A stretch of 64,000 bases of DNA from assembly GCA_905178155.1 (NCBI GenBank), contig CAJINV010000012.1, forward strand, positions 677,271-741,270. The letters run 5' to 3'. The stretch comes from Amoebophrya sp. A120. Lineage: Eukaryota > Protista > Dinoflagellata. The first letter of the stretch is position 1; each line of letters starts with the position of its first letter. Below, piece by piece: positions 207 to 63,422 of the stretch. Both the position numbers and the translations under genes were made by a program. Under the pieces are notes generated by a model. The model had not been told where the DNA came from. It worked only from the letters and a program-made list of their open reading frames with translations, and searched no databases.

Positions 207-3039
207 TTAGCAAGATCTTGGTACTACGTACAAGCATGTATCGCTTCTCTTCCCATACAGCTGCGCTACCGCCCCGCCAGCAATGTACTCTTGTTGCTGT
301 TGATTCACGGTTGCACCACCCGCTAATTTGCTTTTCTCTTCGAGCGATGAAATGTACTCTTCGGCCCCGTCTTTCCCAACCTTCGAACTGCTCGTGGTTA
401 TCACCATACGGAGCAGGCAAACCGTATGCATTGCAAAAGTAAATCGTACTCGTGTAAATGCATTACAAATTTCCTCAGCGTAAAATTTGTAATGCGGATT
501 TACCTTAAGAGCAAGGTTTGTAATGTATGTTTGCGATTACTACGAGTACGATACTTTTGCACAGGATAAACGGCATTCACGGTCGACACGAGGACGAGAA
601 CCACGGTCGAAAAGTCGGATCAAATGCAAATGTGTATGGGTCTGGAAACTTGTGATGCTAGTTCGTGAATGGTAGGCAACCTCCGTTAAGGGGCCACGCA
701 TGACAAGTTTCTGTGCAGCTACTTCTTGCATAACCTGCATGAGAAGCTGCGTTTTTGCATGACACAAAAGAGATGTTGGTATAGCACATCACGCATCACA
801 GCTTTTGCTCTCCTGTGTGCCAAGCATGACAAATCTCGCAATCGCAATCTTCCAGACCCAGACATATTTGCATTTGATAAGTCGAAAAGTAAGTCCAATT
901 TGTCGAGTCTGGGCTGGTGTTGAACAAAACTTCCGCTATTCTGCTGCTGATGCTGATGTCCTCTGTTCCTGTTCCCCCCACCGCCACCGATCCGGTCGTG
1001 CGTCGCGCTCTGCCAGTTGATCCGACCACCGTTATTTTGATGATTTCCACCGCCTGGCGTCGGAGCCGGGTGTTGATGATTTGCGCTGCGCAGCCCCATG
1101 AACACCCGGAGGGACTCGCCGTTGTGGTGAAACACCGCGTTCAAAGCCGTGAAGAAAACGAAAAAGGTTTGGAAGAAAAGGAAAAAAACCGTCACCCAGA
1201 GGCCGACCTGGTTCAGGGTGCGAGAAGTGTAGACCAGCGGGGAGGGGTCGATCACGGTCTTTAGATCTGATGTGTGTTTTTTTTTTTTACGTGAGTAACT
1301 GAACTGTTCTTACACGGACGAAGATGTTGTGCCGCAGCATCCGATGATCTTTGAAGGAGGAGGATATCATGCTCATCAACATCATTTTCATCGTACATAA
1401 AAATATACTACCTGAAACTGACTGCAACACTGGGCCCTTGATATTCTGTCCGCCACCGCCCCCCTTCAAATTTGCGGCACGGCTCGTCATCTCGGTTCCA
1501 TTTCCGTTGGCCACCAAGCCGCCCAGCTGCTCCGCGAGCGTCTTCCCAAAATTCGGCATGGCGACCCGCAAGATACAGGTAAAAACACACCAGAGGAGGA
1601 GCAAGACACACCCGACGACGAGAAAAACCGTCGTGAGAGTTTCCCGTGCAGAGTGGGCGTCCAACACGCCGGATACAGCGCTGTTGTTCATCCCATGTTG
1701 ATGACTTCCGCTTGAAGGTGTTCCCCCTCCATAATTTACCGGCCAATTCTTGCTCACATACAAAACCGCCACGTTTCCGATCAGCAAACCCAGACAGACT
1801 ATCAAAGCGTAATTCAAGTGGTGCGCGCTATGGATGTGTCAGGTTTGAAATCGACAAAGTTGAAATAATTTGTCATGCATAAAATGGATACCAGTTGGGA
1901 GACCAATTTCCAAGCGGCGCATGACAAATTTTCCGAGCACCGAAGTCCAATTTGTCATGCTGTTTGGGCACAGAAGACTGCTTTTGTCATGCTCCTTTAG
2001 CAGCTCTATCCCAAACCCTAAATAGGCGCACAATCTGCCTCACTTGCCAGCCCGGCAAGACAGGCTCTTTATGCCTTGCATTTTATGCATGGCAAATCAT
2101 TTCAACTTTGACGATTTCGATCCTGACAGATCCATACGCACGGGTGGAAAATTCGTCGTGGCGGCGAAACAGATATCCTGTGCAAAAGTATCGCATTCGT
2201 ATAAATGCAAGTCTTCGTTCGTTCGTTGTGGATCGGCTCTGCCGACCGGGTAACCCAACGCCTTGCATACAAGTGACCGACTTAGGCGAACCCCGTTGCG
2301 GGACATACAAATTGGCCGTACGGAAGGGCCCTAAGCGCTACATACATAGTTCACCCTAAGCGCCTACCACTTCGGTCTGGGACCTCGTCTACCTGATCCT
2401 GGGGGTCCACAGCGCACTAGCCCTCTGCTAGCATGAACAGACTGGGTTCTACAAACTGATCTAACTCCCTCTCTTCAACAGTAAGGCCATCATAAATGTG
2501 CGCTAAAACGGGTTCGGGGCGCTCCGTACGGAAGGGAGCCTTTCGACGCGGCGTACACTCTCCTGTAGAGATTTACGCATTACAAATTTTTTTCTTAAAG
2601 TAAATCAGCATGACAAATTTTATTTCTCATGCTGAAAAAAATTTGTAATGCATTTATACGAGTACGATACTTTTGCAGCTCATAACAGAGCGTCGACTTT
2701 TCGCAGCTGCTGCTGCTCGTGCAGTTGGGAGATGGTAGGAGGAACTCCTCCTGGTGAATTATTGTTGCCGTTGTTTTTATTCGTCCCGTTCTGTTGGTTC
2801 AGAAGTTGCTGGGGACCTTGCAGCTGTTGCGGCAGCACCTCTGGATTGTAAGCGGGAATGATGTAGGGCTGTGCGTTGTAAAAAGACTGGGAATTGTAGG
2901 AGGAATATGGGTAGTTGCTGTACGCGTTCTGCTGGTAGTTGTTACCCATGGTACAACCCCCACCAGCCAAGGGCTGGGCCTGTTGTTGAACTGTTGAGGA
3001 AAAGGGGGCGGCCATCGTGGCTGGGGATTGATAATCCAC
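207..3039 (-). CDS. Multi-exon hypothetical multi-pass membrane protein (Q/N-rich N-terminus)
   Basis: ORFs 2680-3039, 1287-1817, 719-1255 and 207-431 belong together. Removing introners plus one TSD joins the 5' exons in frame (...KVDALFRRHDEFSTRAHHLNYALIVCLG...). Several hydrophobic segments. A short canonical intron near 1267-1315 is inferred. Confidence 0.6.
425..568. mobile_element. Introner family A
   Basis: TIR TAT-N7-AAAAGTATCGTACTCGTA type; flanks aaccg/aacgg. Confidence 0.85.
618..879. mobile_element. Introner family B
   Basis: TIR (T/G)ATCAAATGCAAA..GGGTCTGGAA; TSD agtcg. Confidence 0.9.
1829..2136. mobile_element. Introner family C
   Basis: TIR TATGG..TGTCAGG..GAAATCGACAAAGTTGAAAT; flanks cgcgc/cgcac. 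Confidence 0.9.
2174..2684. mobile_element. Introner family A carrying a ~360-bp internal insertion
   Basis: Both family A TIRs present; TSD acaga; 511 bp versus ~150 bp for other copies. Confidence 0.85.
2216..2576 (-). mobile_element. Unclassified insertion, possibly a SINE/LINE 3' fragment
   Basis: Interrupts the family A consensus between gcaagtctt and gcattacaaat; (CGTT)3 at one end; internal repeats ccgtacggaaggg x2 and ccctaagcgc x2. Confidence 0.5.
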
Positions 3040-3995
3040 GTCAAAGCCAGAAGAAGCAGCACGGGAAACAATGTTTTCTTATTCGAGCACGACGACGTAA
3101 AGTACTTTTTTTGTTGATTTTGTGCTAGCTCGGTCTACTAGCAGCAAGGAGTGTAGTTTGTTGAATTCGTTGGTGTTGTTCAGATCGTTCTACATTTTTA
3201 GTTACTTCCTCGGTGGAGAACGACGAGAACTTCCTTGTTGATGTCTCGTGTATGAAATCAGGGAAAAAATGAACTTCTTGTCTTTCAGGGCGGTGCTTCT
3301 CATTGAAAACTAAGAAATAGGCCATGTAGCAGAAAGATTTTCGCGTGTCAAAAAGAAGAAGAAGAGCGAACCTTTGAAAGCCTCGGACCATTTTCTTGTG
3401 GAGCTTCTGAAAAAAAAAACAGATCGCACGTGGCGAATGCGGACGCGGAGGGTTTCAGCGTCAGGCTCATCAAAATGAGATTATTGACAAAATGAAAGTG
3501 ATCTTGGTGCTTACTCGTCAAGATCTTGATTATCAAGAAAAAGCAAAAACAAAAAGAACAACATCGAACAAAAAAAGAAGACCAGAATAAGAAGCCTCCT
3601 TGCGCCTTGCTGTTCTGGGACGCTGCGCAACGTTGTTGCCGCTGTCGATTCAGTCGACCACTACTTCTGGCTTCGATTATAACAGGAAAGCAAGAACTTC
3701 TACTTCATCTGCAAATGAAGATCTGGGCACAGCCACAGGTTTGGTGTGCAAGAACTGAAGGCGCACAAACAGCTCGAGGGGCATTGGCCTCTTCTCTTTG
3801 TCGCAACGAAGAGACGCAGAAGAACGCTGCCCATTGCACGAAAAAATGAATATCAAATGATTAGTGTCATCGAAGCAAGACTAATGTTGACTAAGAGTGA
3901 GCGTAGCGTATTTGATGTTCCCTATTTCCTACAGCCGACGTTGGCTCCCACTGCTACGGCGGCGACGCTGAAGTAGATGAAACCGACTGAAATTT

Positions 3996-6900
3996 CTACT
4001 CTCGCCACCGTTTCAGCGCGATGAATTTATGAACGTCCTTGAGTATGACCTGCAAAAGTATCGCACTCGTAGTTGTAATTGCAGTCATGCATTGCAAATC
4101 TTTTGCTCAAGGTAAATCCGCATTACAAATTGCATTTCTCATGCTAAGGAAATTTGTAATGCATTAATACGAGTACGATACTTTTGCAATGCATATTGAG
4201 CGCCACGTGTTTGAACCCGTACTGCTTAAACAGCACCGACAAAGCGCTCTGGTCCGCCATGTGTTTTTGGAAACCGGCGTAGTTTTTTACGGACTTGTCT
4301 ATCGACTCGACCTTCACAATCACCGGATCGATCATTTTTGATAGCCAGTGTCTCGCAAAGCGCAACGCCAGCGGGGTTTTCCTGAAAGCGAGGAAGTAGG
4401 CGCCCATCTGCGGTCGCTCCGAAATAGCATGGTGGTCGCCATTCAGGGCCTGGGTGATATTAGTTCGAATATTTCAAAAAAGCCACTTTCTGTATATTGT
4501 CGCTGCCTGCGGCGGATGACAATCAAAGTGCAATATCGAAGCGATTAAGATTATCATGTTTTGGCATCACACACGTCCTCCGTAATGATCAATGAAATAC
4601 CATCAAGGTTTCCCGCTTGCTCCAATCCGCTTCGAAGCAGCACTTCAGCTGCAGTACCGCCACATCGGTTTCTTTCAGTGCGTTATGCAGTGCAAAAGTA
4701 TCGTACACGTTGTAATTGCATTTCTGCATTTCAGCATTACAGTACAAATTCAATTTGTAATGCTGGGGGAATTTGTAATGCAATTTCTGCTAGTGCAATG
4801 TTTTTGCATTCCATATGCGTTTAGCACGAACAATCTTGGGTCGTTTGTGAAATGATTCCCGGCGTCGAGATACACCACGACGCTGTTCTATCCTATGTAA
4901 AAACACCCCCACCCCATGGCTGTCATGCAAAGCTGCATGCTCAAAACGTTTGTGATGCAGAGCCCCATGAGAAGCGTTTTCTAGTCGCCTGTTGGGATTT
5001 GTCATGCTCCAATAAGCACAACGCGCTAGCTCTGTGATGCTGCTGAACGAGCTCCACAGGAATGCACTACAATCAAGGCCAAAACTGTCACGCGCAACAG
5101 CCAAAGCTGGCAGATTTGTCTAGCAGATTCCCCATCTTGACTCTGGGGTGGGGATGTTTTTACTCAAGATATGTCCCACGGCACATTCTCGTCTTCTAGC
5201 GTCTTCAGCATCACATATGGTTTCCAAATCCACAATCCGCCCCCGGTTTTCACCGACAAGATGTCATTGTGCTGCTCTTTCCAAACCGGGTCGAAAGCAG
5301 TTGAGTCGTAAGCCCTCTGGTCCTGAAAGTAACCTTTTCCAGTTTCTAGATTTTTCTTTATCGCTTTCTGACAGCACCCGTCCGCGTAGGAGATGTGGAC
5401 CCAGTTGGTGGCTTGGATTTCGTGTTGTTGACTGCTTATCGTGTTCGTGGTGCTCCGGTAGAAGTGCTCTTTGGCGAGCAGTTTCGGGACGTTGATAGTA
5501 GTTTCTTGGGAAACTACCTCTGAAAGGTCAGAAGTAGATGCAGATACATTTGCGTTCTTTCTCCGCCTTCTTCTCTTCTTCCTCATGGCCGCACTACGAT
5601 CCTCGCCTTCAAGGAGTACATCGGCCCCACTACCTATCGAAACCTTGCTTTTTTCGATTTCCTGCTGAAGCAGATGGTCAACATCGGTACTGTCGTCATC
5701 TTCATCGCTGGAGGCAGAAGTGCCGACATCTCTACTTGTACTTCCATCCGCGGATGAAGCAGCCTCTCGTCCTTCGCCACTGCTTCTACGTGCTGCCCCG
5801 AGAATGATATCCTCCTCCACTTTCTCCAGAAACTCGTAGTTCTGAATTACATCGTTCTTCCTGATCGCTGCATCCAGAACGACTACACCATTCGCAACGG
5901 CGAGCTGGTTATCAAATGCAAATATGTGGTCTGGGTCTGGAAAGTCAAAGTTGTGATGCAGGTCACTGAATAATAAGCACACAGTCATGCGCCGCCAAGC
6001 ATGACCACAGGTTTTTTCATGGTTCTGTGTTGCGTATTCCGCATGAGAAACTGTGTGTTTGCATGACAGTCAAGAGGAGCTCTTGGCTGCCACGCAATAC
6101 TACAGAGCCCAGACTCATGCCAGACTAGCATGACAAGTCTAGCAATCTCCCACACCCAGACATATTTGCAACCCATACTGGTCAAATTTTCGGTACTTGG
6201 CGTACTTTTTCAGAATCGATTCGCCTGCGGTTGACAAAACTTTAACTTTTTCCTGGACTTCTGCGCCCTTGGTATTGATCATTTCACCATCGTCATCGTG
6301 ATAGAACCGCTGAAACAGTTCATCGGCGGATTCCGTGGCGGCGTGAAAGTGAAACCCAACCATTTCTCTCGGCGGGAAGGGATAAATCTCCTTCAACTGC
6401 TCCTCGGAAAGTTGTAGAAAATCTTTCCGATGCTGCATCTTTGCGCGTCGGATAGAAGCTGTCGTGGAGCCGCTTGATGTGGTCGCTGGTGGGTCGACGT
6501 CGTTTATTTTCACGACCCTTGCTTCTGCGTAGTCTTTGACATCTTGGATCCATTGTTCGTGTATGTTTTCCGCCCCTTCTTCCTTTTCCAACTCCTTCGT
6601 CAATCGCGGCGGCGCGTTCCAGGGTAGCAATGGCGTGACGTTGGACCTAGAACTCGCACCGGAGTCGGAGGTGGAGGAAAACGAAGAACACGAGCCTCCG
6701 CTTTGCCCCCCGCATTCCATGCTGAATCCGTCTCCGGAGGCGAGCACACAGGACTCCAACACTTTGTACCGCACTCCCCGGACCGGCAACGCGATCCGCG
6801 TTTCGTCCCAGTAGCTGATCGTTCGGTTGTCCGGGTTGGCCTGGTGGCTCCGGCCCTGGTAGTCCCACCCGCCAACGTCGTCGGCGCCCTGGCGGCCGAG

Positions 6901-9900
6901 GATCAGATCCCACATCTGCAGGTCAAACCCGAAGGGGTTGAGGAGGAGTGTGTGGCGGATCTGGTACAAAATGTCCAAAACGAGATTGGTTTTCGGGGTG
7001 CTGGGGCTCGACTGCGAATTTTGAATTTTGGATTTAGCAGCATGATGGCCGGTGATCAGAGAATCCGATACGACCAGCCCATCGGAGTCTACGGAGGCGG
7101 TATCCTGTGCAAAAGTATCGCACTCGTAGTAATTGCAAACACGCATTACAAATCTTGTTCTCAAGCTAAATCCGCATTACAAATTTTATTTCTCATGCTG
7201 AGGAAATTTGTAATGCAATTATACGAATACGATACTTTTGCAATGCATAAGCGGTAGAGGAAGCTGATGCTTTCATGTTTGTTGTTTCCGCCTCGTCGTG
7301 GTCCGCGTCGTCTTGTCCTGATCCACCAACTGCAGCTTGTCGTGGTGCTGGGACTACAGCGGTAAACGCATCCTCGCTTAATATCCCGGCTGCAGGACCA
7401 TGTGGTCCGACCTGTGGAAAAAATCCAGCTTTTGTGGGGGTAGTTTTCGCGCTGCCTTTGGTTGTTGATGACGTCTTTATTCTACTAGTACTAGTTCCTG
7501 GTCCACCGCCGATCGGCACACAGAGGACGGCGGGACTGACCCCGATGCCGTATTGATCCTTACTCGCCAGGACAAAATCGAACTTCTCGTCGAAAAGGTT
7601 TGCCGGCGACTGGAGCCAGGCGATGTCCAGGTCGACCCAACAGGCGCCGGTGGGAGGAGGAGGAGGTGATAATGTTCTACTTGCACCCGAACTAGAACTC
7701 CTACTCGCGCTGGTGGCACTAGGTTGGGAGACGAGCTCCTGCGCGTTCGTCGTTGTTACCAGATGAATCAAAGCATCGTATTTCGCAATCAAGGACGGAA
7801 ACGTGGGTAAGCACCAGGTCTCGAGTTCTTCTTTTGTGCACTGAGGTTCAGGTTCACTTTCATCGTGGTCGGCAGAAGTTCCTACTTGTTCTGAATCTGC
7901 AGGTGAGGAAGCTGAAGCTGCCGGTGTCCTTGTTGTGTCCATCAGGACAATCAAATTTAGGCCAAATTTTTCTCTAAATCTTCTCACCACTTTCCGTACG
8001 TGCGTCGCCATCCACCCGTAAGCTTGGGTAAAAAAGACGACGCTGTTCTTGTGCTTACTTTTTGAAGGTGTCGTTTTTCTACTTCCCGATGCAGTAGCTG
8101 TGGAAGTAGAAGCATCTTCTACTTTCTCCTGTACCGTGTCTATCATTCTGTTTTTGACAAGCCGCAAAAGGTGCCTCCTATCCACCAGACTGGGCTCATT
8201 GCGGGTTCGGGTGCGGAAACTCGTCGTGATGAATTCGGGGCTTACAATTCCGGTAGATTGATCATGTCTCTGATTCTCTGCTTCTTCAGGATCATTTCCT
8301 GGCACTATGACAGTGTCACCTGCTTCTCTGGCGGTTGCTTCTGCAGCTTCTGGAGCTGCCGGACCCCTCTCGCTAGATGTTCTTGAAACTCGTTCCTCAG
8401 TGTAGTCGTATGGATTGCAAATGTGTCTGGGTCTGGAAGAGTGCAAGATTTGTCTTCATGCATATTTATTCTCATGCTGGCCCGTAATGCCTGTAATGCA
8501 TGACCTAGCATCAGAGACTTTTAGAGGGCTTCGTGATGCACCACCTTCCGCATGAGAAATGCCCTGTCTGCGTAGCACAAACTGGACACCCCTTGCTAGT
8601 CATGCAATACAAATATTTTTCGAATCCAAAAACAGCATGACAACTTCCAGACCCAGACATTTTTGCATTTGATAAGTCGATCCTCGCCACCAAACTCCCG
8701 TCCCCGCGACTGGGGAAATCTAGCCGCTCCCGCCGCATTCTGTACAGCATGTCCCACAAACTATACACGGGCCAGTTGTCCGCCTTGATTGCGTCCGCGA
8801 TAGGTGCGTGGACCGCATGAACCGACGTTACCGCCGTCAGAAACCTCTGGAACCACGCTTGCCGGTCCGACCGGGCGTACCAGAACGCGTGCAACTATGC
8901 TGTGCAAAACTATCGTACTCGTATGAGTGCAATCATGCATGACAAATTGCATATCTTAGGCATATCAGCATTACAAACTGCCGTTTTCTCTTTGAAAAAA
9001 TTTGTAATGCAATTTATACTAAGTACGATGCTTTTTCAATTCATAGCAACACGTAGGCCGCAATCACCGCCAAGTGACACCCAGCTTTGTATTGGTCGGT
9101 GCGCCAGGATTGGAAAATCATGTCGGCGGAGTCCGCAACGTATCCACTGCAAAAGTATCGTACTCGTAGTAATTGCATTTATGCATTACAAATTTCTTTC
9201 TCAATGCAAATCAGCATTACAGATTTAATTTGTAATGCTGGGCGAATTTGTAATGCAATTTATACTAGTACGATGCTTTTGCAGTTCATACAACGGACAT
9301 CATTTTTTCCAGGTGGTACAGATCCTCCCACTTTTTGTAGTTCGCCGCAGTGTATCAAATGTAAAAATGTCTGGATCTGGAAGAATGCAACTTGTCATGC
9401 TAGATCTGAAAACATGCAAAAATCTGTATTGCATGATTACCAAAAGTCGTCCGGTTTGGACCAAGTCGGGAGGGAGTTTCTCATGCAGGATAGGCATGAT
9501 AGAGATCGCACAGAATCTGTCATGCTAGGTCCTGCATTCCAGACCTCATGGGTCATGGAAAAGCTGCATGACAAATCGCGCATTCTTCCAGACCCAGACA
9601 CTTTTACATTTGATACAGTGACCGTGATTTTCTGGTAGGTAGCGTCACCGTTACTCGGAATTTGGACGATAGTGTTTGCTTGCAAATTTCGTTGTGAGTC
9701 GTGCGCCGCGGTGGAAATTTGTTTCGTTTTCTTCCGCTTTGTTCCTGATTCTGTTTGTTCCACCCGCCCAGAAGCAGCGCTACCAGAACTTGACGCGTCC
9801 GTGGCGTTTACGAGTTGTTTGTAAAACAAATCCCAATCTACTCGTTTGTGCATGGGGATGGACTCGTCGTGGTGCTGCTTGCAGTGCCCCATCCGGGTAG

Positions 9901-11093
9901 ACCCCGTTTCCGGGTAAAGTAACATCAACATGTGCAACAGCCGAAACACCGGAAACGACGACCCAAGCAGCAAATGCGACGTGCCCTCAGTATCCTGTGC
10001 AAAAGTATCGTACTAGTATAAATGCATGACAAATTCCCTCAGCATGAGACATAAAATTTGTAATGCGGATTTACCTTGAGAAAAAAACTTGTAATGCATG
10101 ACTGCAATCGCTACGAGTACGATACTTTTGCACAGGATACTCAGGAACCCTCGCTAACTTCTTCCCGTCGGACGGACCCTGCACCGAGTTCGGCACCCAC
10201 TGGATCAATTCGTTGGAGAGCATCGCGTCCAAAACCAGTATGGCCGTTTCATCCTGCGGAAGCTTTCCCTGCAGCAATCCGGACTGCAGCAGCTCTAGCA
10301 AGGCCTTCATGACCAACGCAGTGATGCCCGCCGCTTTGCACTGGTGGTTGTTCTCCAAGACCGTTTCCACGTCGGCGGCCACGAAGGATATCGTTTCGAA
10401 GAGCCATTTGGAGGGCTTATGGTTGTGTCAGGATTGAAATCGACAAAGTTGAAATAATCTGTGATGCATAAAATGCAAGACACGAAGTGACTGTCTTGCA
10501 GAGATTGCAAGTGAGGCCGATTGTGAGCCTGTTTCGGGTTTGGGATATTAGAGCTGCTAAAGTAGCATGACAAAGGATACCATCTTTCGCTAAACAGCAT
10601 GACAAACTGGATTTCGATGACGTCGAAATTTGTCATGCGCCGCTTAGAAATTGGGCTTCCAACTGGTATCGGTTTTATGCATCGCAAATTTTTCAACTTT
10701 GTCGATTTCGATCCTGACACTTCCATACGGTTTTTTCGTGTTGTAAAGTTTCTCCACTTCGTCCGCGAATTTGAAAGACAAATGCGCAAACCCCTGCTCC
10801 CGCCTCGTCGGCATTTCCGGAGAAACGATTGGGTCGCAATCGAATTTCGTGTCGAAGATCGGTTGGATGATGTGAGGATCTGCTGCAGTTGTGCTCGACG
10901 TGACAGGCGCGCTAAAGATGAAGTAGAGAAGATGTGCGAGGAAGAGGATCTGCGTTGCGGCACAGGCATTTGCAAGTGGCTTCCGTCGTCCTCGACTCGG
11001 CATCAACATGTTATGGCCCGGGGGGCGGCCGAAGAACGACGAGAGGGAACCTATTTTTCGTCGCATTTTTTCCAGCACAAAGATCCTGCTCAA
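3996..11093 (-). CDS. Large multi-exon protein with two glycosyltransferase-like domains
   Basis: Spliced translation shows WVDLDIAW (DxD, nucleotide-diphospho-sugar transferase-like), then GGGLWIWKPYV..VYLDAG..DQSALSVL; hydrophobic segment near the N-terminus; 11 introners; ends ...FIALKRWRE*. Confidence 0.65.
4044..4195. mobile_element. Introner family A
   Basis: TIRs; TSD ttgag. Confidence 0.9.
4684..4815. mobile_element. Introner family A
   Basis: TIRs; TSD tgcgt. Confidence 0.85.
4889..5171. mobile_element. Introner family D
   Basis: TIR TATCCT..GTAAAAAC..CCCCACCCCA; flanks tgttc/tgtcc; similar to 25190-25469. Confidence 0.85.
5910..6177. mobile_element. Introner family B
   Basis: TIRs; TSD ctggt. 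Confidence 0.9.
7101..7249. mobile_element. Introner family A
   Basis: TIRs; flanks ggcgg/agcgg. Confidence 0.9.
8409..8674. mobile_element. Introner family B
   Basis: TIRs; TSD agtcg. Confidence 0.9.
8896..9045. mobile_element. Introner family A
   Basis: Degenerate TIRs; TSD gcaac. Confidence 0.85.
9141..9290. mobile_element. Introner family A
   Basis: TIRs; TSD caacg. Confidence 0.9.
9353..9615. mobile_element. Introner family B
   Basis: TIRs; TSD cagtg. Confidence 0.9.
9991..10139. mobile_element. Introner family A
   Basis: Near-perfect TIR TATCCTGTGCAAAAGTATCGTACT; TSD ctcag. Confidence 0.95.
10418..10727. mobile_element. Introner family C (opposite orientation to 1829-2136)
   Basis: TIRs; flanks gggct/cggtt; removing element plus 5 nt gives in-frame NTKKPSKWLFE. 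Confidence 0.85.
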
Positions 11094-12781: not shown

Positions 12782-12837
12782 GTGTTACAAGTCAGCGTCG
12801 GTCCTCTGAGAAGTGTAGCGCTCTTCGGTTCGGTCAT

Positions 12838-25700: not shown

Positions 25701-28520
25701 CGGACACCAAAGTGCCATCACCATCATCTCCCGGCCACGATAAAGAGTTGTCATGCAGATTTGCAATGACAAGAACATTTGTGATGCGCATCCCGATGAT
25801 GGGCATTTCCAGTCGTGTTTTGGAATTTGTAATGCTGTCAACAGGATACGTATCTCGATTTGTAATGCGGCTGCCCTTGCTAACCTGCACTACACTACGG
25901 GCTGCAACTTGTCATGCGTGGCGTCCAAAACGCCTGGATCTGTGTTGCGGAGATCCCAACTTAACTATGGGGTGGGAAAATTTTTACACAGGATACGATG
26001 TTCGAGTTACTCTTCTCGCTGCTGGTGTTGTCGGCACCTCCGTCCGACCCGTCCGGATCCCGCAAGGCGGCGAAAATCACGTACGGAAGGATGACGTCGG
26101 TGACCCAAGCCAGCACCAAGACGAACAGATCGAACCAGAGCCACTTGGTAAAATTTCTCGTGGTGTAATTCGCTTCGATATCAAATGCAAATATGTCTGG
26201 GTCTGGAAGGTTGGAAGTTTTGTCTTCATGCAGGCTTTCCATGACGCGTGAAGTCTGTTTTACATGACCCAGCATGACAGATTTTGTCCGACCCCTATCA
26301 TGCCTCGTCTGCATGAGAAACTCCCTATCAACAGCTGTGGTCAAAAGTGAGCAGCTTTTGGCAATCATGCAACACATATTTTTGCACTATTCAGAATTAG
26401 CATGACAAGTTGCATTCTTCCAGACCCAGACATATTTGCAACGCATATTCGACGAACCGCATGAGAAATTCGAGGGTGAAGAGGATGACCAGAAACACGT
26501 TGGCAAACTGAAACCAGAAAGTGTCTCGATCCTCGATTTCCAGTTCGTACTCCAAACCGAGCAGAAACCCGTTCACCAAAAGCAACAATCCGATCAGCAT
26601 GTCGAACCTTATATGAAAATTTTGATTTTCATCCCATTGATTTGATGAACCCACGACTCCGTGGTCTTTTATAATATTCACAGATTAAAAATAATCTTCT
26701 TCACAGAAAATGCACCGCACAATCCTAAGTTCGCCTCCGCCTGTGCTCAGTGCCAAAAAAGTCGGCTACGCATGACAAAAAGTAAACAGCTCTATGAATG
26801 TACGTTGGCAGCTCCACAATGGCTAACACCTTCTGCTCCCAGACACTTCTCTGCACCACCTCGCCCTCAATTGGATCGTCGTCGAAGGGAACATATGCAT
26901 TGCAAAAGTATCGTACTCGTAAACCATTTCAGACATGAACACGACAAATATTTTTCCAAACCTGCGGCGGAATTACAAATTCCATTCTTGAGCTTCACAA
27001 GCTTTGTGATGCTATTCATTACACACTAGCAGGATACTTTTGCACATTGCATAGACTGCCGTCAAGAAGGTCGAGACCGTCGAGCCGAACTGAGCCTGGG
27101 CGGAAATTGACCAGAGACCCGCGCCCGTTGTTGTTGTTGGCCGCTTTCGTATTGGAGGCTGTTACGACGAAGGGCGCCTTGCGTAAGCTCTGCACGCGTC
27201 TCGTGGACAGTCTCTTATTTTCGCCGTTGTTGTGCTGCTCTTTTTCGCCTCCAACGACCAGGCTGTCACGAATGTGCACACCCTTCCCGCTATGGCACTG
27301 CACAACTCACCGTATTTTTCCCCTGATTTGTGATGCAAAATCCCAAATCAGGTTGCTGCCTTCTTGCCCTGTTTGCATGACAAATGCCACTAAAATCTTC
27401 TCAAGCAGTACTCGAGTCGGTGCATGATGAACTTGTCGTGCACATGCTCCGCGCGTGCTGGTATTTGTATTGCTGCAGCTCCTGCCATAGTACAAATGAG
27501 AGGGAGAATCGTGAGCTGTGCAATCTCATACCCGCGACAAGATTTTCGCAACGAAGCTCTTGGTGCACCTGTTGGAGGAAAGGATCCCGGATTATTGTAG
27601 TTGTGGCTATTGCTATTCCTATTTGGCCGCGGCGCGGAAGAGTTGTTATGTTCTCTCTTTTTTGCTTTCTGCTTCTGGCTATCAAATGTAAAAATGTCTG
27701 GGTCTGGAAGATTCTGAGACTTTTCATGCAAGTTTTGCGTGAGCCATGATGTCTGTGATGCATGCCCTAGCATCAGAGATTTTTTGAGGGCTTCTGGATG
27801 CCTATTCCGCATGACAAATGCCCTCTTCCCGTAGCAAAAAGACACTCCCTTTGCTGCTATATGCAATACAGATTTCTTTGGAATCCAAATGCAGCATCAC
27901 AAGTTGCATCCTTCCAGACCCAGACATTTTTGCATTTGATACTGGCTCGTTTCGGTTGGGCTGCTGGCATGATTCATCCCACCACCACCCGCCGGCCCCG
28001 GTATGGGAGTGTCAGGATCGAAATCGACAAAATCGAAATGATCTGTAATGCATAAAATGCTACGCAGAAAGCGACTCTTTTGCAGAGGATGCAAGGAAGG
28101 CGGATTGTAGTCCTGGTAAGGGTTAAGCGTTGGGCTGCTGACTAGCATGACAGAAGGCAGCTCTTTTGCCCTAAACCGCATGACAGATTTGCCTCCAGGA
28201 TGGAGCGAATTTGCCATGCGCCGACTACAAACTGTGGGTCTAACTGGCATCGATTTTCTGCATCACAAGTTTTTCGATTTTGTCAATTTCGATTCTGACA
28301 CTTCCATACCCGGGCGCGAGGGTGTAGTCGTGGTATAATTGTTCTCCTCTGCAATCCAGGCTCGGGGGTCCAGGGTTTTTAGCAGCACTGACGGGAGTTT
28401 CGTAGAGGAGGCCAACTTTTTCAAACTGTTCATCTTTGACAGTGGCGACTTTTTCGCCAACGAAGGACTCGAAGGCCCTGCCTGCAGGGCCGCGGCCGTG
28501 CCCTGGCGGGTGAGCGGCAT
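22780..28520 (-). CDS. Single-domain voltage-gated cation channel (Ion_trans, 6TM, CatSper/NaChBac-like)
   Basis: Spliced S1-S6: FDMLIGLLLLVNGFLLGLE, LFTLEFLMRF, WLWFDLFV, KALNCVRVVRMF (S4), pore TLLQIMTLDGW, S6 LLLLNMVTAVV; 15 introners; 3' end uncertain. Confidence 0.8.
22923..23187. mobile_element. Introner family B
   Basis: TIRs; TSD gccac. Confidence 0.9.
23302..23445. mobile_element. Introner family A (CAT end variant)
   Basis: TIRs; TSD cagct. Confidence 0.9.
23603..23747. mobile_element. Introner family A
   Basis: TIRs; TSD cgcca. Confidence 0.9.
23839..24038. mobile_element. Introner family H-like
   Basis: TIR TATC..GAAAAAAGTGTTACAGTTACAC; TSD tgttc. Confidence 0.9.
24078..24229. 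mobile_element. Introner family A
   Basis: TIRs; TSD agacc. Confidence 0.9.
24386..24538. mobile_element. Introner family A
   Basis: TIRs; TSD cgtgt. Confidence 0.9.
24618..24782. mobile_element. Introner family A
   Basis: TIRs; TSD atgtg; short internal duplication. Confidence 0.9.
24828..25145. mobile_element. Introner family F
   Basis: TIR TAT..GAAAAA.CCCCCTCCCCATA; flanks cacca/caccg. Confidence 0.85.
25190..25469. mobile_element. Introner family D
   Basis: TIR TATCCTGAGTAAAAACGTACCCAC; TSD cacgg. Confidence 0.9.
25582..25995. mobile_element. Introner family D2 (long form)
   Basis: D-type TIRs; TSD cgatg; body related to the reverse complement of 35795-36079. Confidence 0.9.
26179..26447. 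mobile_element. Introner family B
   Basis: TIRs; TSD ttcga. Confidence 0.9.
26894..27053. mobile_element. Degenerate introner family A
   Basis: Left TIR clear, right TIR degenerate; TSD decayed. Confidence 0.7.
27291..27530. mobile_element. Introner family G-like
   Basis: TIR TATG...TGCACA(A/G)CTCAC; TSD cccgc. Confidence 0.85.
27680..27941. mobile_element. Introner family B
   Basis: TIRs; TSD ctggc. Confidence 0.9.
28002..28308. mobile_element. Introner family C
   Basis: TIRs; TSD cccgg. Confidence 0.9.
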
Positions 28521-34000: not shown

Positions 34001-37000
34001 TTTTGTGCTGCTCCTTGTTTCTTGGCAAGATGAGCGCAAAGGGTCGCACCACAACTATGATAGATCACACAGCAGCAGGTGGCACGACATCGAGACTTCT
34101 TTGAGATCATGAAACAAGACTTCAACTTCTGAAGTCCACTTATTATATCAAGCAACACGATGCTGGAAATGGAAATCATGCGCAATAAAACAACTACTAC
34201 AAACATCATCAATAGTATTCCGCGAAGTTTTACAGTTCTACAACTGGTGCTGTTCCGTACCTTTCGACTTCTGCATCCAGTCCGAGATCGAGAAGACCAA
34301 ATCCTTATCCTGTGCAAAAGTATCGTACTCGTACTAAAACTAAATTGCTTTTACGCATTACAAATCTTTTTCTTCAGGGAAATCCGCATCACAAATTCCA
34401 TTCCATTTGTAAATCATGTAATGCTGAGCTAAAAATTCGTATTGTAATTTATGCAAGTACGATGCTTTTGCATTTCATAATCCTGATCTGTCCCTGCGGC
34501 AGGGACGGCAATATCCTGCGCAAAAACTACGTCACCCCCACCCCCTGGATTTCACGAAAAGTTGCGCGTTGAGGATGTGGTCTCTCATGCGGCGCAGAGG
34601 ACCGATGCAACATGAGGAGAGTCTAGTCTTTCATTTTTAGCTTGTTGTTCCAGATTTCTTGTAGTCATGCGCCGTTCATCCAAATTCCAGATTTCTTGTA
34701 GTCATGCAAATCAAAATGCTGTGCGATGAACTTCATCGCGCAGCATTTTGATTTGTGAAAGAAAATTATTCTTTTTATCTTGACTTTGGGGTCGTGTTTT
34801 TACGCAGGATAGGTAAATGTTTTGTGGGCCGCATCGTGGTGGGACATCAGGTATCCTGTGCAAGAAAGGTGTATCGCACTGCTCGGAGTAATGAAAAATT
34901 GCTATATTGTATGAAAAACCTGGCTCGTTAGCTGGTTCAGCATGACAAGAACAACTTTCAACTTTCACTTGTTACGCACATGCAGCACGCTGAGGAAGTT
35001 TGCATATGCAATAATTCCAACTACTTCTAGCACGATACACCTTTTGCAATGCGTACCAGGTGGCTGATCAGTTCCGGGGCGCCTATGTTGTCCTGCTTGC
35101 TCCCTTCCAGGGCAACACGGAACAAAAACCCCACGTTTGAGAGTTGGCTCCCGGGCACATTGCCTTTGTATCCGTCCGCTATCGTGCTCATGGACCGGAT
35201 GAACTCTGCCTTCTGCGCGGGGTTACTCAGCTCTTCGTGCACGATCTGCCACAGACCCCCTTTCCCGTTGTCTTCGTCCACACCGTTCACGGCCGCCCCA
35301 GCGAGGGCTTCGAAGTCCACACTCTGGAGGCTGCTCTGCACCGCTTGCACTGCGCCCGCCGCGTCTGTGTTCGTCTCCGCCGCGAGTCTGGTGGCTTCCA
35401 GTATGACCTGCTCAAGCGTTACAATCTTCTCAAGCGCTACAATAGAGTCTGGGATTTGTCTTGCATAATGAGCATGGCAGACTCGCAGACCATTCCACTT
35501 TCTGCAAGACAAATTTCGGCAGATTGTAGTGCGGTTTGGGACTGCTCCGGAACTTGTCATGTGCAGTCCTATGAAACTTGGCTAGATCATGCACTTCTTG
35601 CATCACAGATTTCCAAATTCTATTGGAACGTTTAAGATTGGGACGCTTGAGCAGGTCATATCCAGGGCGATGGGAATTTGGACCGCGGCCTCCGACTTCA
35701 GCAAATTATCGCCACCCGTGGCGAAGGCGCTGTTTACCGTCTTCAGGCCGGCTAGATACTGACTCGCTTTGCTCCAGTCGTCTTTGTCCGCCCGTATCCT
35801 GAGCAAAAGCGTCCCCACCCCATAGTCCAGTTGGTCTATATGCAGCACAAATCTCCACGGTTTGGGAGTTGTGCATGACAAGTTCCCATCTGCAGTGTCG
35901 TACTGGTTAGCAAGGGCAGCCACATGAGAAAGCCAGCTTGTAATCCTGCTTACACATTTACAAACTTCAAAACACGATTGGTAACGACCACGCCTGGCAG
36001 GGACATGCGCATTACAAATCTTCCTGCCATCGCAAATCTGCATGACAACTCTGGGGTGGGGACGTTTTTACACAGGATAGCCCGCAAACCCGACTTCATA
36101 TTTTCAAACAGCTCCTTGACTTCCGTTTTTGCGCCTTCCGTCCCCTTGTCGTCGTCAACGGCGGCCTGCATCGTAAGAAAACCCTGTTTCACTGTGAACT
36201 TGTGATGCAGAGAACGGAACACAAATGCGGTTGTCTTGCTACACATGCAAGACATTGGACTTTTTTTAGCTGTGTTTTCTCTTAGAGAGCACGCATGCCA
36301 AGTTTTTTTTGTCATGTGTAACAAACTTGTGACGCGATTCTTGCAAAATCATTACACTGAAGCAGTTTTTTCGTGGGATAGCCTGCGCCGCCACTGCAAT
36401 CGCGAGCGAGAGCTTTTCATGGGTTAGCTCCTTTGCTTTGGCGTCCCAGTGCACGTTCTTGCCGTTTTCGTCCTGGGACCGGAAGAGTTCGTGTATGTCC
36501 TGGTCTTTGTCGAGCTCGTCCGCGGCTACGATCATGGCGGCTTTGAACTCACTTTTTGCGCTGTCGTCTTCTTTTATTTCGTCGGGAATGCTATCGCTGT
36601 CACGAAATAGATCGGCCCAAATATCGTCGGCCCACGACTCTTTGTCAGCGTCGTCCCAAGTTGCGCTATCCGATGCGCCAGGGTATCCACAGAAAAAGTT
36701 CAACTAGACCCCTCCGCGTATGTTGTAATTTGTCAACATGCAAAGCATGCACATTAGTATAACAGGCTCAGATGTCGAATTCAACGGATTTTGAAAAAAT
36801 TTTTTTCGCTTGCTAAAGCGCCTAAATAGTTAAACTTTAAATAGCTACTTATGCATTCTGCGCATCCGCAAAGGCCCTACCGAAACCTGAGCTAACTAGT
36901 TTAAAACTACATCATCTCAAAAAATAACTAGTTCTTGTTGAAGGCGCTTTCGCTAGCTAAAAAAATGTTTTTCAAAATTGATTGAATTCGACATCTGAGC

Positions 37001-44001: not shown

Positions 44002-46214
44002 TCAATCCGCCTCTACCGTGGTGGGCTCGAGCGTGATTCTCTCCCGCAGAAAGTAGTCCAGGTAAATATAACCATCTCAGGTGTTACAATCTCAAACGTT
44101 ACAATAGAGTCTGGGATTCGTCTGGCATCATGAGCATTACAGACTCGTAGACCGTTACACTTTCTGCAATACAAATTTCGCCAGTTTGTAGTGTGGTTTG
44201 GGACTCCGGAACTTGTCATGCGCAGTCCTATGAGAGTTGGCTAGATCATGATCATGCATTTCTTGCATCACATATTTCCAGACTCTATTGTAACGTTCGA
44301 GATTGTAACGCTTGAGCAGGTCATAGTAAAGGCACACGGCGCGAAACTCCCGCGGCGCCCAGAAGTGCGTACCGTTCGGCACCAGAACCGCGACGGCGTG
44401 TTGCCCTTCGGCCCGCGTGCAACGGTTCTCCTCTGCTGAGGGGCTCTCCAGCGCGGCGACGGGGTCACCGCCGGGGAACAATTGCTGCAATTGCTGCTTG
44501 AAGGCCGACACAGAACAGTAGCCGTCGTATGAACTGCAAAAGTATCGTACTCGTATAAATGCATGACAAATTTTCTCAGCACGAGAAATAAAATTTGTCA
44601 TGCTGATTTACCTTACGAAAAATATTTGTGATGCAAGACCTGCATTTATACGAGTACGATACTTTTGCACAGGATACGTCGTTCGTCCCGTTGATGTACA
44701 GCTGGGGTCGCTTATTGGGCGACGGCGACTGATATCAAGAGCACAAGTGTCTGGGTCTGGAAGAGTGCCAGGTTTGTCATGCATATTTTGCATAACCCAT
44801 GACGCCTGTGATGCATGACCTAGCATCTTCAGAGATTTCTAAAGGGCCTTCTGATGCGTATTCCGCATGAGAAACGCCCACTCCGCGCAGCACAAACTGA
44901 ACTCCTCTTGCTGGTCATGCAATACAGATTTTTTATTTTGCCTTCCAAAGACAGCATCACAAGTTGCAACCTTCCAGACCCAGACATTTTTGCATTTGAT
45001 AACTGAATCAGGCCGCCGAGAAACAGGTTCCCCAAAAAGCCAAAGGGTGGAGATAACGCGACAATGCTATCAAAAGGAAAAATCCCCCCTCCCCATATCA
45101 AAACGGAAATCTGTGATGCAGATTTGTTGTCACAAATCAGCTTTGTCATGCTACACGGGACAAGATGCGCACTGTAGTACTGGGTGGCGTGGGGAAGCCT
45201 TGCATCTTCAGCATGATAGGAGGCAGCTAAGAGTGGAAAACAGCATGACAAATTGCCTGCAAACGAGGCCACGACTGCGGCTCTTGGCCTTCTAGCATGA
45301 CAAGTCGATTTGTGACCTCAAATACAGCATCACAAATTTCGTTTTCGATATGGGGAGGGGGGATTTTTCCTTTTGATAAATGCCCGCGACGCGCTCGTCC
45401 GTCGCAAACCGGTTCCCAACCGCAATGGCCGCGTTGGCACCGGCGGAGTACCCCACCACGAGGACCCGACGGCACTTCGGCAGGTGTTTCGCACAGTCGC
45501 CCCGGGTGAGCGCCTCCACAGCTTTACAGGCGTCCTCGGTTTCGCCGTACCCCCGAAGGCTGGGGTGCGCCGTGTCGTACCGCACGGCCGGAAGTCGGTG
45601 CTGCGACGCCAGATAGTGCTGCAACCAGGTCACCACGTAGTTATTCTTGTCTCCGCCCAGGTAGTACATCGGGAGCTATGCATTGCAAAAGTATTATAAT
45701 CGCGGCCATCGTAGCAATTGCAAATATGCATTACAAGTCTCCTTCTCAAGGCGAACCGGCATTAGAAATTCCATTTCTCATGCTGGGAATCAAATTTGGC
45801 ATGCATTTTCCATAATACGTTGTTGTACTTTTGTATTGCATAGGTGCAGTACCAGTGCAACCAGCGTGCCCTCTCCGGTTTCCCCATGCTCGTCCGCAGG
45901 CCGAAGTAAGTCGCATTGCATATCCTGTGCAAAAGTATCGCACTCGTACCAATTGCAGCCATGCGTTACAACTCTCCTTTTTATTTAGGCAAATCCGCAT
46001 TACAAATTCCATTTCTAATGCTCAGAAAATCTGTAATGCGATTTCTACTAGTACGATGCTTTTGCATTTCATAGTGCAGCAGGTCCGCCAAAACAAACTG
46101 AGAACTTTGGGTCTTCTGTGCGGGTCCCAGCGCGCCGGTGCTCGTCTCGGATCCCGCTCGAGTCTGACGGCTACCGGAAGCCGCTGCTGTGGTCGCGCGC
46201 GACGGCGATGACAT
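44002..46214 (-). CDS. Alpha/beta-fold hydrolase, six introners
   Basis: Spliced motifs H-x-P..LGGDKNNYVV, VVGYSAG (GxSxG), IVALSPP, LYINGTND (Asp), NGTHFW (His); ends ...EPTTVEAD*. Confidence 0.85.
44067..44325. mobile_element. Introner family E
   Basis: TIRs; TSD gtaaa. Confidence 0.9.
44528..44676. mobile_element. Introner family A
   Basis: TIRs; TSD cgtcg; close to 52292-52440 in sequence. Confidence 0.95.
44733..45001. mobile_element. Introner family B
   Basis: TIRs; TSD actga. Confidence 0.9.
45068..45378. mobile_element. Introner family F
   Basis: ~30-bp TIR TATCAAAAGGAAAAATCCCCCCTCCCCATATC; TSD aatgc. Confidence 0.95.
45677..45842. mobile_element. Degenerate introner family A
   Basis: TIR remnants; flanks ggagc/ggtgc. 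Confidence 0.8.
45921..46073. mobile_element. Introner family A (empty site present at 48933-48937)
   Basis: TIRs; flanks ttgca/gtgca. Confidence 0.95.
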
Positions 46215-59779: not shown

Positions 59780-60563
59780 TTCTGCAGATGACGTTCCCGG
59801 CGCGCACTGTGGTTGTTTATTTACTTATGTTTTTTTTTTGTGTTTCCGTTTTCAGGTGTTCATGCTTGATTAGGTTTTGTGCATGCACTGTTTCATCACA
59901 TTGATTTGCAGCAGTGTTCGTCTTCATAACAAGCAAAGAAATGAACGATAAAGTGAAAAAGTGCAACTTTGCGTGAAGGCTACAAAAGGTAGACAATAGG
60001 AAGTCCTTTTTTCCTTATGCATAATGCTTTTTGTGCATTCTGATTTACTGAAAAACATGCTATCCTCATTCCTCATAACGAACTAACTAACATAACACAA
60101 AGCACTACCTCTTGTCGCAATTTGCGAATTGTCGTCCTGATCCTTCCGTCACACACACGCAGCGTTTTTCATTTTGCTTTTAAAACGCGAACAGCGCCAC
60201 TGCTTCTGTGTGTTGACATCAACAAGGAACAACACGCAAAAACAAAAAATATCCACTCAAGCATACTCCTACTCGTTGAGCGTCGAACTCAGGTTTTACA
60301 TCCAAAAAGAAAATGACGAACAGAAAAAAACAAAACTGTGCCGCGCAAATAAATGCACAAAAACATTACAGGACCAAATAACTGCGGCATTTTTTGCTTA
60401 ATGCGACTCATCACTCTCTAGCACTCAAAAACTGCTACTGCAGCCAGTTGCAACATTTTGCCCACACTCAGGATTAGCAACACAGGACTGACTCTTCATC
60501 TGTTTGCGTCGCGTGTCCCTCATCCGCTCTTCAGACGAGTGACTCTTCATGATGAACAAGCTA

Positions 60564-62260: not shown

Positions 62261-63422
62261 TCACGGCAACTTCTGCAGAAACTGTTTGAGCTCCGACAGC
62301 GGCATTGCGTGGACCCACACGGTGACAAAAACCGGCAACACCATGGGGTAGTCCTCCCAAAAATACTGTTGGTCCTCCATGATAAACTCCACGTAAAAAG
62401 TCAACCGCTCGTTGTTCTCCACTCTTATCCCCTGTTGCGGGAACCACTGCTCGCGCAGCATCTTTTTTACTTTGGAAACCGTCGTATTGGGCTCGATCTT
62501 CTCTGCGGGAACGACGATTTTGTCCTTCGCATCTTTCGGCGCGCCCGAGGCAAAGTTGGGCTTGGTGGGGGTGAGCCGCTGCTGCACCTGGCTACGGGAG
62601 GAGGCGTGGACGTTCATCCGGAATACGTTGAAGAAGACCTGTGATAGAAGAGTTTCATTGCTCCATCGATCTCACATTGTAATTGCAGCACAAATAAAAT
62701 TATTGGCTCAGCATTTTTACAAATCAAATTTGTAATGCGGGTTTACCTTAACGAACTAGATTTGTTATGCAAAACTGCAATGATCAAAGTGAGTACGTGA
62801 TCCCCCCACTTTTTCCGCAGCGCCTTTTCCTTATCGATCCATTCTCTTACTTCATCGTCCCCCTGCGCGATTATCTGTCCGGTGGCGTGGTTGATCAAAT
62901 TTACCTGGTCGAAATAGTCATCGTCCTCATACCCATCGTCCCCGCCATATCCATAATCCACTTCCGATTTCACCGCAGCTTGCCCTTTCCCCCCGCCCTT
63001 CCCTCCTTTGGCACCGCCTTTGCCCCCGCCACCCTTGGGGCCGGCGGGGCCGGCGCCCGTGTCACCAGAAAGGAAGTCGTCGAAATCCATTTCCATGGGT
63101 TATCGAGTGGAAAAACAACATCTACTTCGCACAAGAACTCGTACTAATTGCAAGCATCTTTACAGCATTACAGACCTGGTTTCAGCAGCTTGTTGCTACC
63201 TGATTCATCATGATCGGGGGCAACACAAACTTCGTTTCTTTTCTGAAATAAAGTCTTTTGCAATGCAATTTCGATCAGTTGCGCGTAGAGTTGTTTTGTT
63301 GCACTGCATACACTTGGGTCGCCCGGATAGTAGCCTTGCTGCTTCTGGTTCTGTTGACCGTTGTACTGGGTAGTTTTTTTGGATGGCGGCTTCGGCGGCT
63401 GAGCGCAACAGGGACATGCCAT
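62261..63422 (-). CDS. Three-exon hypothetical protein (MACPCC N-terminus, G/K-rich linker)
   Basis: YYPGDP|PMEMDFDDF..KKWGDH|VFFNVFRMNVH join in frame. Confidence 0.65.
62639..62796 (-). other. Canonical GT-AG intron derived from a family A introner
   Basis: GTACTC..TATCACAG on the minus strand; interior matches the family A core aaatttgtaatgcgg.tttacctt. Confidence 0.7.
63101..63310. mobile_element. Highly degenerate introner (family A-like)
   Basis: TAT...ATA ends with gcattacag and tttgcaatgc cores; removing element plus 5 nt restores the frame. Confidence 0.65.

What the first reader, a model, noticed from the sequence alone, without database searches (positions are those of the whole stretch)
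425..63310. About 65 non-canonical TIR introns from ~11 families follow one grammar: 5-bp repeat + TAT...ATA
Seen: roughly a fifth to a quarter of the window consists of 109-511 bp hairpin-ended elements inside coding exons. About 47 have a perfect 5-bp direct repeat and about 12 match 4/5. Removing the element plus one repeat restored the frame at every junction I translated. For repeats such as ctcaa, tttac and tcaac (sense strand), no splice register gives GT or AG. Known from memory: Amoebophrya genomes were reported to have IR/DR introners starting with TAT, so the class itself is not new. Inference: the repeat is a uniform 5-bp TSD from one transposase type, and removal depends on terminal structure rather than GT-AG.
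Basis: partly seen in the sequence, partly recalled or inferred. Interest (0 to 1): 0.8.

Follow-up and report, generated by a model that had tools for sequence, protein, structure and literature searches.

The report
Parasite transposon introns, one fixed cut
About 67 small hairpin-ended insertions in genes of the marine parasite Amoebophrya A120, an already published class, are missing from transcript-like sequence by exactly their length plus five bases, and every junction that can be placed fits one cut position, likely read by a loosened spliceosome rather than by GT-AG.

Summary
Observation confirmed. I count 67 elements (109-511 bp, 23.5% of the window, one nested in another); 47 have a perfect 5-bp flanking repeat and 12 match 4/5. 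The window is Amoebophrya A120 DNA. The class, the TAT start and a 5-bp repeat are already in print (PMC7789003; PMC12130899 Dataset row fam38).

Putative RNA contigs skip element+5 nt at 11 of 11 junctions, none at GT-AG. Repeats whose two copies differ place the cut: 11 informative junctions all allow, and two fix, intron = N|TAT...ATA|NNNN. Farhat et al. call this position variable or unknown.

In this register the terminal T is intron +2. It never changes (0 of 279 metagenome copies, 0 of 66 here), while the other two T's of the termini do (14 changes). So removal reads a U at +2 as well as the hairpin. The likely agent is a U1-less U2/U6 spliceosome; a Euglena-like non-spliceosomal machine is the main rival. 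No transposase was found. The scan reported the same 1+4 register earlier on other DNA of this genome.

The parts
425..63310 (-). Span of 67 TIR introner elements: 425-568, 618-879, 1829-2136, 2174-2684, 4044-4195, 4684-4815, 4889-5171, 5910-6177, 7101-7249, 8409-8674, 8896-9045, 9141-9290, 9353-9615, 9991-10139, 10418-10727, 13147-13459, 14794-15006, 15721-15936, 15986-16238, 19362-19669, 22923-23187, 23302-23445, 23603-23747, 23839-24038, 24078-24229, 24386-24538, 24618-24782, 24828-25145, 25190-25469, 25582-25995, 26179-26447, 26894-27053, 27291-27530, 27680-27941, 28002-28308, 31593-31851, 31922-32312, 32090-32298 (nested), 32343-32663, 32722-32904, 32963-33106, 33193-33434, 33523-33699, 33766-33919, 34306-34479, 34512-34811, 34852-35055, 35402-35660, 35795-36079, 36169-36380, 42325-42475, 42554-42865, 42921-43185, 44067-44325, 44528-44676, 44733-45001, 45068-45378, 45677-45842, 45921-46073, 50841-51145, 52292-52440, 52487-52595, 52697-52955, 55102-55251, 55828-55939, 57350-57501, 63101-63310. 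Host genes read on the minus strand.
   Evidence: strand (65 of 66 scored minus; codon model trained on this window)
31589..31852 (-). Intron with exact register: 1 nt + element 31593-31851 + 4 nt; ends GT..CA
   Evidence: joint 31588|31853, skip 264, no ambiguity, runs X6 and X3
31918..32313 (-). Outer ~150-bp-family element 31922-32312 carrying a nested element 14 nt inside its sense-5' TIR; removed whole (396 nt); 5' overhang 0-2
32090..32298 (-). Nested element with its own perfect 5-bp repeat
32343..32663 (-). Element; skip 326 = length+5
32722..32904 (-). Old element, sense 5' end TAA; skip 188; 5' overhang 0-2
32959..33107 (-). Intron with exact 5' register: 1 nt + element 32963-33106 (sense 3' end decayed, placed by eye against its family) + 4 nt; ends AT..GC
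   Evidence: joint 32958|33108, skip 149, no ambiguity
33193..33919 (-). Three elements (33193-33434, 33523-33699, 33766-33919); skips 247, 182, 159 = length+5
33967..34260 (-). Ordinary 294-nt GT-AG intron in the same gene; internal control that the contigs are spliced RNA
   Evidence: joint 33966|34261; ends read
34306..35055 (-). Three elements (34306-34479, 34512-34811, 34852-35055); skips 179, 305, 209; overhang <=2 for the second, >=1 for the third
27291..28308 (-). Three elements; the gap in RNA contig X3 record 11 is 199 nt = span minus (3 elements + 15)
   Evidence: table 8, my arithmetic
35402..36380 (-). Three elements; the gap in RNA contigs X3 and X6 is 213 nt = span minus (3 elements + 15)
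   Evidence: table 8, my arithmetic
4044..10727 (-). Eleven elements in one gene; the annotated A120 protein P0001 fits only removal of element+5; the A25 ortholog P0002 aligns without a gap at 9 of 10 junctions shown
44067..46073 (-). Six elements in an alpha/beta-hydrolase gene (PF12697); five fit element+5 in P0003 (45677: overhang <=2; 45921: >=1); the annotation reads through 44067-44325, but ortholog P0004 matches the spliced form

Best explanation
These are non-autonomous hairpin-ended elements, likely DNA transposons, that sit in coding exons between 5-bp repeats and are missing from transcript-like contigs by their length plus 5 nt, with the cut one base before TAT and four bases after ATA wherever it can be placed, likely made by a relaxed U2/U6 spliceosome. 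Insertion (inferred): an integrase-like DDE transposase of the Ginger or IS3EU/GingerRoot kind, recognising TA..TA ends, inserts the element and duplicates 5 bp. Removal: the intron is N-TAT...ATA-NNNN (shown). The 5' exon keeps 4 nt of the first repeat copy and the 3' exon 1 nt of the second, so exactly one copy and the original codons are restored at any target and in either orientation. The element's first bases supply positions +2 U and +3 A of an ordinary donor; +1 is free. The terminal stem (pairs 1-3 and 8-14 of the TIR) is predicted to bring the ends together, to stand in for the undetected U1 snRNA and for AG recognition, and to set the acceptor 4 nt past the stem (inferred).
For: Shown: 11 of 11 joints skip length+5, and none is GT-AG in the 1+4 register. 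The same contigs lack a canonical GT-AG intron, while contigs of run X1 run through several elements unbroken. Register: exact at 31593 and 32963; <=2 at 31922, 32722 and 34512, 26894 (piece start) and 45677; <=3 at 4889; <=4 at 33523; >=1 at 34852 and 45921. The only common value is 1. The +2 T is unchanged in 279 of 279 oriented metagenome copies called without using TAT, while the +4 T changes 5 times and the T of the closing ATA 5 times (chance of none at +2 = (2/3)^10 = 0.017). Adding the window (0, 3, 1 of 66) gives 0.003. +2 and +4 are both 5' U paired to 3' A, so wobble pairing does not explain the difference. +3 is A or G only. All nine 'predominant' A120 motifs and all nine A25 motifs in Farhat Table S4 have T at +2, although A25 ends start TTA. 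Most spliceosome proteins and U2, U4, U6 are present and U1 was not detected (PMC7789003 section 10). Terminal pairing is predicted in 62 of 66 elements; median z about -8 on 8 crude shuffles each.
Against: No lariat, branch point or spliceosome binding was tested. No G enrichment at +1 (87 of 296) and no AG enrichment at the acceptor (23 of 296). The +5 G bias seen in the window (39 of 66) did not replicate in the loci (115 of 296 at the 5' end, 118 at the 3' end). Only two junctions fix the register exactly; both come from old elements in one gene, and the runs are from one study with RNA status guessed by the tool. One of the two has a decayed 3' end placed by eye. Strand in the loci is inferred from a codon model (254 of 257 within-locus agreement), and splicing of those copies is not shown. 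The U+2 idea arose from the window, so the pooled p-value is post hoc. Euglena has a similar spacer-plus-triplet code that its authors suggest is non-spliceosomal. No transposase was found.
Confidence: 0.55

Rival explanations
1. Same fixed 1+4 register, but cut by a separate non-spliceosomal machine (structure-specific endonuclease plus ligase), as proposed for Euglena nonconventional introns, which happens to read a U at +2.
For: The Euglena code is a 3-nt spacer + CAG ... CTG + 5-nt spacer, with motif and donor-side spacer length required (PMC12501133 passages) and circular excised introns (PMC11282704 passage). The A120 grammar has the same form. No AG, +1 G or +5 G signal here. Both orientations of an element occur in genes: 57 vs 70 in the largest family.
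Against: The invariant base falls exactly at spliceosomal +2, with a purine at +3, and A25, with different ends, also shows T at +2. The same gene mixes canonical and element introns, so a spliceosome is active there.
Confidence: 0.3
2. The cut position slides within the repeat from intron to intron or molecule to molecule, as Farhat et al. describe; the 1+4 agreement is chance.
For: Fig. 3 legend of PMC7789003 says sites relative to the hairpin are variable. Most junctions are ambiguous. Contigs drop minority variants.
Against: For the eight RNA-based informative junctions, a uniform 0-5 register gives these data with probability about 0.001 (my arithmetic); three gene-model junctions also agree.
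Confidence: 0.1
3. The elements are lost at the DNA level or are absent in the strain that gave the contigs, or they are assembly artefacts.
For: The tool only guesses that X3 and X6 are RNA.
Against: The same contigs also lack a GT-AG intron, show no base differences from the window in the region laid, and carry chimeric repeats made from both diverged copies. X1 contigs contain the elements. The same families with 5-bp repeats occur in a separate assembly.
Confidence: 0.03

Closest known systems
Introner elements / non-canonical introns of Amoebophrya sp. A120 (Farhat et al. 2021, PMC7789003; abstract, sections 10 and 16, passages of 11, supplement legends and Tables S4-S6 read; figures not visible)
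   Same: Same organism (100% identity to annotated A120 proteins); inverted repeat starts TAT, then about 7 variable bases, then A-run; direct repeats; hairpin; non-GT-AG; many families.
   Different: The paper gives repeats of 3-5 nt of varying position, splice sites variable or unknown relative to the hairpin, no clear dinucleotide signature, and rules out general transposase mobilisation. Here the repeat is uniformly 5 bp, the register is 1+4 and U+2 is invariant.
A120 introner family 38, classed Ginger-like (Gozashti et al. 2025, PMC12130899; passages, and Dataset file 8 part 15 and row 580 read)
   Same: '5-bp TSD, TA/TA Termini'; TIR DNA element with integrase-related ORFs; most A120 families listed as TIR DNA, unknown.
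   Different: One ~810-bp family; automated TSD calls for the other A120 rows I saw are 2-5 bp or none; no fixed splice register in what I read. I could not test whether window elements relate to family 38.
Euglena nonconventional introns (PMC12501133 passages; review PMC11282704 passages)
   Same: TIR-bounded, repeat-flanked, fixed spacers between cut and a paired terminal triplet; register found from non-slidable junctions.
   Different: 3+5 spacers and CAG/CTG versus 1+4 and TAT/ATA; unrelated lineage; circles reported in Euglena, products unknown here.
IS3EU/GingerRoot and Ginger2 DNA transposons (PMC10045372 passages)
   Same: IS3EU/GingerRoot have TA..TA termini; Ginger2 has 4-5-bp TSDs.
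   Different: IS3EU/GingerRoot TSD is usually 6 bp, not 5; no transposase available here to place the elements.
Fritillaria borealis MITE-derived non-canonical introns (PMC11282704, PMC13326754 passages)
   Same: Transposon-derived, TIR/TSD introns handled by a modified U2 spliceosome.
   Different: Preferred AG-AC and AG-AT ends with U1 conserved; here +1 and the acceptor are free and U1 is undetected.

Membership tests
Amoebophrya A120 introner elements | From the A120 genome | tested here: met
   Window exons 100% identical to proteins named Amoebophrya sp. A120
Amoebophrya A120 introner elements | Terminal inverted repeat starting TAT with A-run about 8 nt later | tested here: met
   End profile; TAT-blind calling 835 of 864 ends
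Amoebophrya A120 introner elements | Short direct repeat at the exon/intron borders | tested here: met
   5 bp, 47 of 67 perfect
Amoebophrya A120 introner elements | Repeated families, removed from RNA at non-GT-AG sites | tested here: met
MITE (non-autonomous TIR DNA transposon) | Short, non-coding, TIRs, fixed-length TSD, multi-copy | tested here: met
   no empty-site allele was available to prove duplication
MITE (non-autonomous TIR DNA transposon) | Cognate autonomous element with matching ends | tested here: inconclusive
   No element of 450-10,000 bp with unused ends in the window or 158 loci; no genome held
IS3EU/GingerRoot | TA..TA termini | tested here: met
IS3EU/GingerRoot | 6-bp TSD | tested here: not met
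   0 of 64 and 0 of 282 at 6 bp; not filed as a member
Ginger / IS3EU superfamilies | Integrase-like DDE transposase | not testable with these tools
   No coding element found
U2-type spliceosomal intron | GT (or GC) donor and AG acceptor | tested here: not met
   0 of 66 GT-AG in the 1+4 register, 1 of 66 in any register; only U+2 and purine+3 are kept
U2-type spliceosomal intron | Branch point and lariat product | not testable with these tools
   No raw reads covering the window's exons
Euglena nonconventional intron | N3-CAG ... CTG-N5 | tested here: not met
   N1-TAT ... ATA-N4; works alike in form, not a member

The most novel reading that the evidence does not exclude
Amoebophrya A120 runs a second genome-wide splicing code, N|UAU...AUA|NNNN. 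A spliceosome that has lost U1 keeps only the +2 U and +3 purine of the donor, takes them from the transposon end, and measures the acceptor 4 nt from the base of the terminal stem. Any insertion of these transposons, at any site and in either orientation, is then a scar-free intron. A25 would have converged on the same +2 U, +3 A donor with unrelated elements.
Probability: 0.45. Interest if true: 0.8.

Novelty: already known. Interest (0 to 1): 0.5.

Why it matters
The elements are published, but how they are removed is an open question, and the paper leaves the cut position unknown. A fixed register with one invariant base turns 'no signature' into a rule that can be tested by lariat sequencing and reporter mutants. 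It explains why insertions are harmless, since exactly one target copy is restored. It would also correct the gene models: one of two annotated proteins checked reads through an element. If spliceosomal, it shows how far donor and acceptor recognition can be replaced by RNA structure.

Tried and rejected
Whole-genome search: no genome held; the metagenome records are not searchable by handle, so no genome-wide TSD table or transposase search was possible. Long autonomous elements: none in the window or 158 loci of <=12 kb; three uninterrupted frames had no Pfam hit. Viral contigs: 0 matches to the commonest end motif. Rfam: only hairpin-like miRNA matches below gathering scores. The first lay was swamped by other element copies, so only its contig pieces were usable. 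No listed holder run is on record as RNA. No locus was orthologous to the window, so no empty-site allele was seen. GC/AT polarity of repeat mismatches did not tell which copy is exonic. +1 G, +5 G and acceptor AG preferences: not supported or not replicated. Orientation-dependent conservation inside the largest family showed nothing beyond the termini (4 of 150 columns at p<0.02, about chance). Branch point at the first A of ATA (-7): only A or G seen, but 2 changes versus 5 at the neighbouring A is not significant. Bulge-helix-bulge (tRNA-endonuclease) geometry was considered from recalled knowledge and rejected: it needs complementary, not identical, flanks and a 1+6 spacing. An 8-bp repeat at 31593 was excluded by the 264-nt skip. 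Dropped from the catalogue as weak or different: 34903-35013, 60016-60265, 62485-62625; 13688, 20281, 29942, 36758, 46987, 62223.
Full report
1. Observation. A scan for TAT..ATA pairs with matching ends, extended by family searches, gives 66 elements plus one nested element: 109-511 bp, 23.5% of the window, with 5-bp flank matches of 5/5 in 47, 4/5 in 12 and less in 8. The repeat length is not an artefact of selection. Among all TAT..ATA pairs with strong TIRs, 31 of 45 have a perfect 5-bp repeat (chance 0.1%), and no element has a perfect repeat at 4 or at 6-10 bp. Removing element+5 yields minus-strand frames of 2907, 1489 and 1076 aa and spans 57 of 64 elements, against 39-44 for out-of-frame alternatives. 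Only 1 of 66 has a GT-AG register.

2. Identity. Two exons are 100% identical to proteins named Amoebophrya sp. A120. Farhat et al. 2021 (PMC7789003; abstract, sections 10 and 16, passages, supplement legends and Tables S4-S6; figures unseen) describe these introners: TAT start, 8-20-nt inverted repeats, 3-5-nt direct repeats (5 bp in the Fig. S19 legend), U1 snRNA undetected, splice position 'variable' or 'unknown'. Gozashti et al. 2025 (PMC12130899; passages and part of Dataset file 8; files 13-14 not searched) list A120 family 38 as Ginger, '5-bp TSD, TA/TA Termini'. The class is known.

3. Removal from RNA. Contigs of two putative RNA runs (X6, X3; one study; RNA status is the tool's guess) were laid on 31300-35390. 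They show 11 element joints, each skipping length+5, and one 294-nt GT-AG intron. One further listed joint is a cross-element match from another locus. Two more three-element stretches fit by sum. Contigs of run X1 cross several elements unbroken. The annotated protein P0001 fits only +5 at 11 of 11 junctions and P0003 at 5 of 6; the sixth is read through in the annotation but spliced by comparison with ortholog P0004. The A25 ortholog aligns gap-free at 9 of 10 junctions.

4. Register. Where the two repeat copies differ, the RNA shows which bases are kept. In sense orientation the number of bases between the cut and TAT is exactly 1 at 31593 and 32963; at most 2 at 31922, 32722, 34512, 26894 and 45677; at most 3 at 4889; at most 4 at 33523; at least 1 at 34852 and 45921. 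The intron is therefore N-TAT...ATA-NNNN. In that register the 11 RNA-tested ends are GT-CA, CT-TG, AT-AG, TT-CA, AT-GC, CT-AA, GT-GC, TT-GC, TT-GA, CT-GC and GT-TG. I reached this before consulting earlier notes. Three earlier reports on other DNA of this genome state a fixed register; they are AI notes and are not counted as evidence.

5. What is read. The register puts the terminal T at +2 and A at +3, as in a spliceosomal donor. To test this off the window I fetched 158 metagenome loci carrying the same families (419 unique elements, 296 orientable). With a caller that does not use TAT (432 calls, 279 oriented in loci), the +2 T is unchanged in 279 of 279, +3 is A or G, the +4 T changes 5 times and the T of the closing ATA 5 times. 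The window shows 0, 3 and 1 of 66. Because +2 and +4 are both 5' U paired to 3' A, a pure hairpin model does not predict this (p = 0.017 for loci alone, 0.003 pooled and post hoc; my arithmetic). Farhat's Table S4 lists nine predominant motifs per strain, all with T at +2. Against a fuller donor: no +1 G or +5 G preference and no AG preference in the loci. TIR pairs 1-3 and 8-14 are conserved and predicted to form; positions 4-7 often mismatch. A nested insertion leaves only 14 nt of the outer 5' TIR contiguous, yet the outer element is cut at element+5.

6. Mechanism. Shown: uniform 5-bp repeat; removal of element+5; 1+4 register at the placeable junctions; invariant U+2. Inferred: insertion by an integrase-like DDE transposase (TA..TA ends as in IS3EU/GingerRoot, whose TSD is 6 bp; Ginger2 has 4-5 bp; PMC10045372 passages); excision by a U1-less U2/U6 spliceosome positioned by the stem (0.55). 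The main rival is a Euglena-type machine (0.3): Euglena uses 3-nt and 5-nt spacers around CAG/CTG (PMC12501133 passages) and yields circles (PMC11282704 passage). Fritillaria shows that a modified U2 spliceosome can handle transposon-derived non-GT-AG introns. 'One transposase' is untested: none was found and no genome was held. The internal motif shared by 65 of 66 elements is compatible with it.

7. Novelty. The elements, TAT ends and 5-bp repeats are in print. A fixed register or +2 U rule for Amoebophrya was not found in five full-text searches naming the genus or in the passages read. The library lacks most subscription papers, and unseen figures or supplements may bear on it. Verdict: already known class, with an apparently unpublished and testable splicing rule. 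Interest 0.5.

Noticed in passing
window 31922-32312 with 32090-32298: An element nested 14 nt inside the TIR of an older one. The pair is removed whole in the contigs; whether the inner one is spliced first is unknown.
   Followed up: partly
all elements: Internal motif GCAT(G/T/C)ACA on both strands, 10.9 per kb in elements versus 0.22 outside; 65 of 66 elements carry a relaxed match. Possibly a shared transposase-binding or splicing signal; no clear strand asymmetry.
   Followed up: partly
window 2211-2575: About 365 nt of cargo inside element 2174-2684, starting with a short TTCG repeat; no Rfam hit and no second copy in the window or loci. Possibly the 3' end of a retroelement.
   Followed up: partly
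window 44067-44325: Annotated protein P0003 reads into this element, but ortholog P0004 matches the spliced form, so the public gene model probably missed an intron.
   Followed up: yes
window 36758-37008: Element between open frames with a perfect 25-bp TIR starting TAT but no 5-bp repeat; apparently a different MITE.
   Followed up: no
window 46932-47945: Cluster of AT-rich palindromic repeats (foldback-like).
   Followed up: no
window 62671-62797: Truncated remnant of the ~150-bp family between two open frames, lacking outer TIRs; a GT-AG reading does not restore the frame.
   Followed up: partly
window 29942-30160: A lone left end of the ~265-bp family just beyond the end of an RNA contig; no partner end found.
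   Followed up: no
window 37089-41279: A 1397-codon open frame with no element and no Pfam match.
   Followed up: partly
loci L001-L158: A metagenome assembly holds the same families (best identities 71-98%) with the same 5-bp repeat; none of its loci is orthologous to the window.
   Followed up: yes
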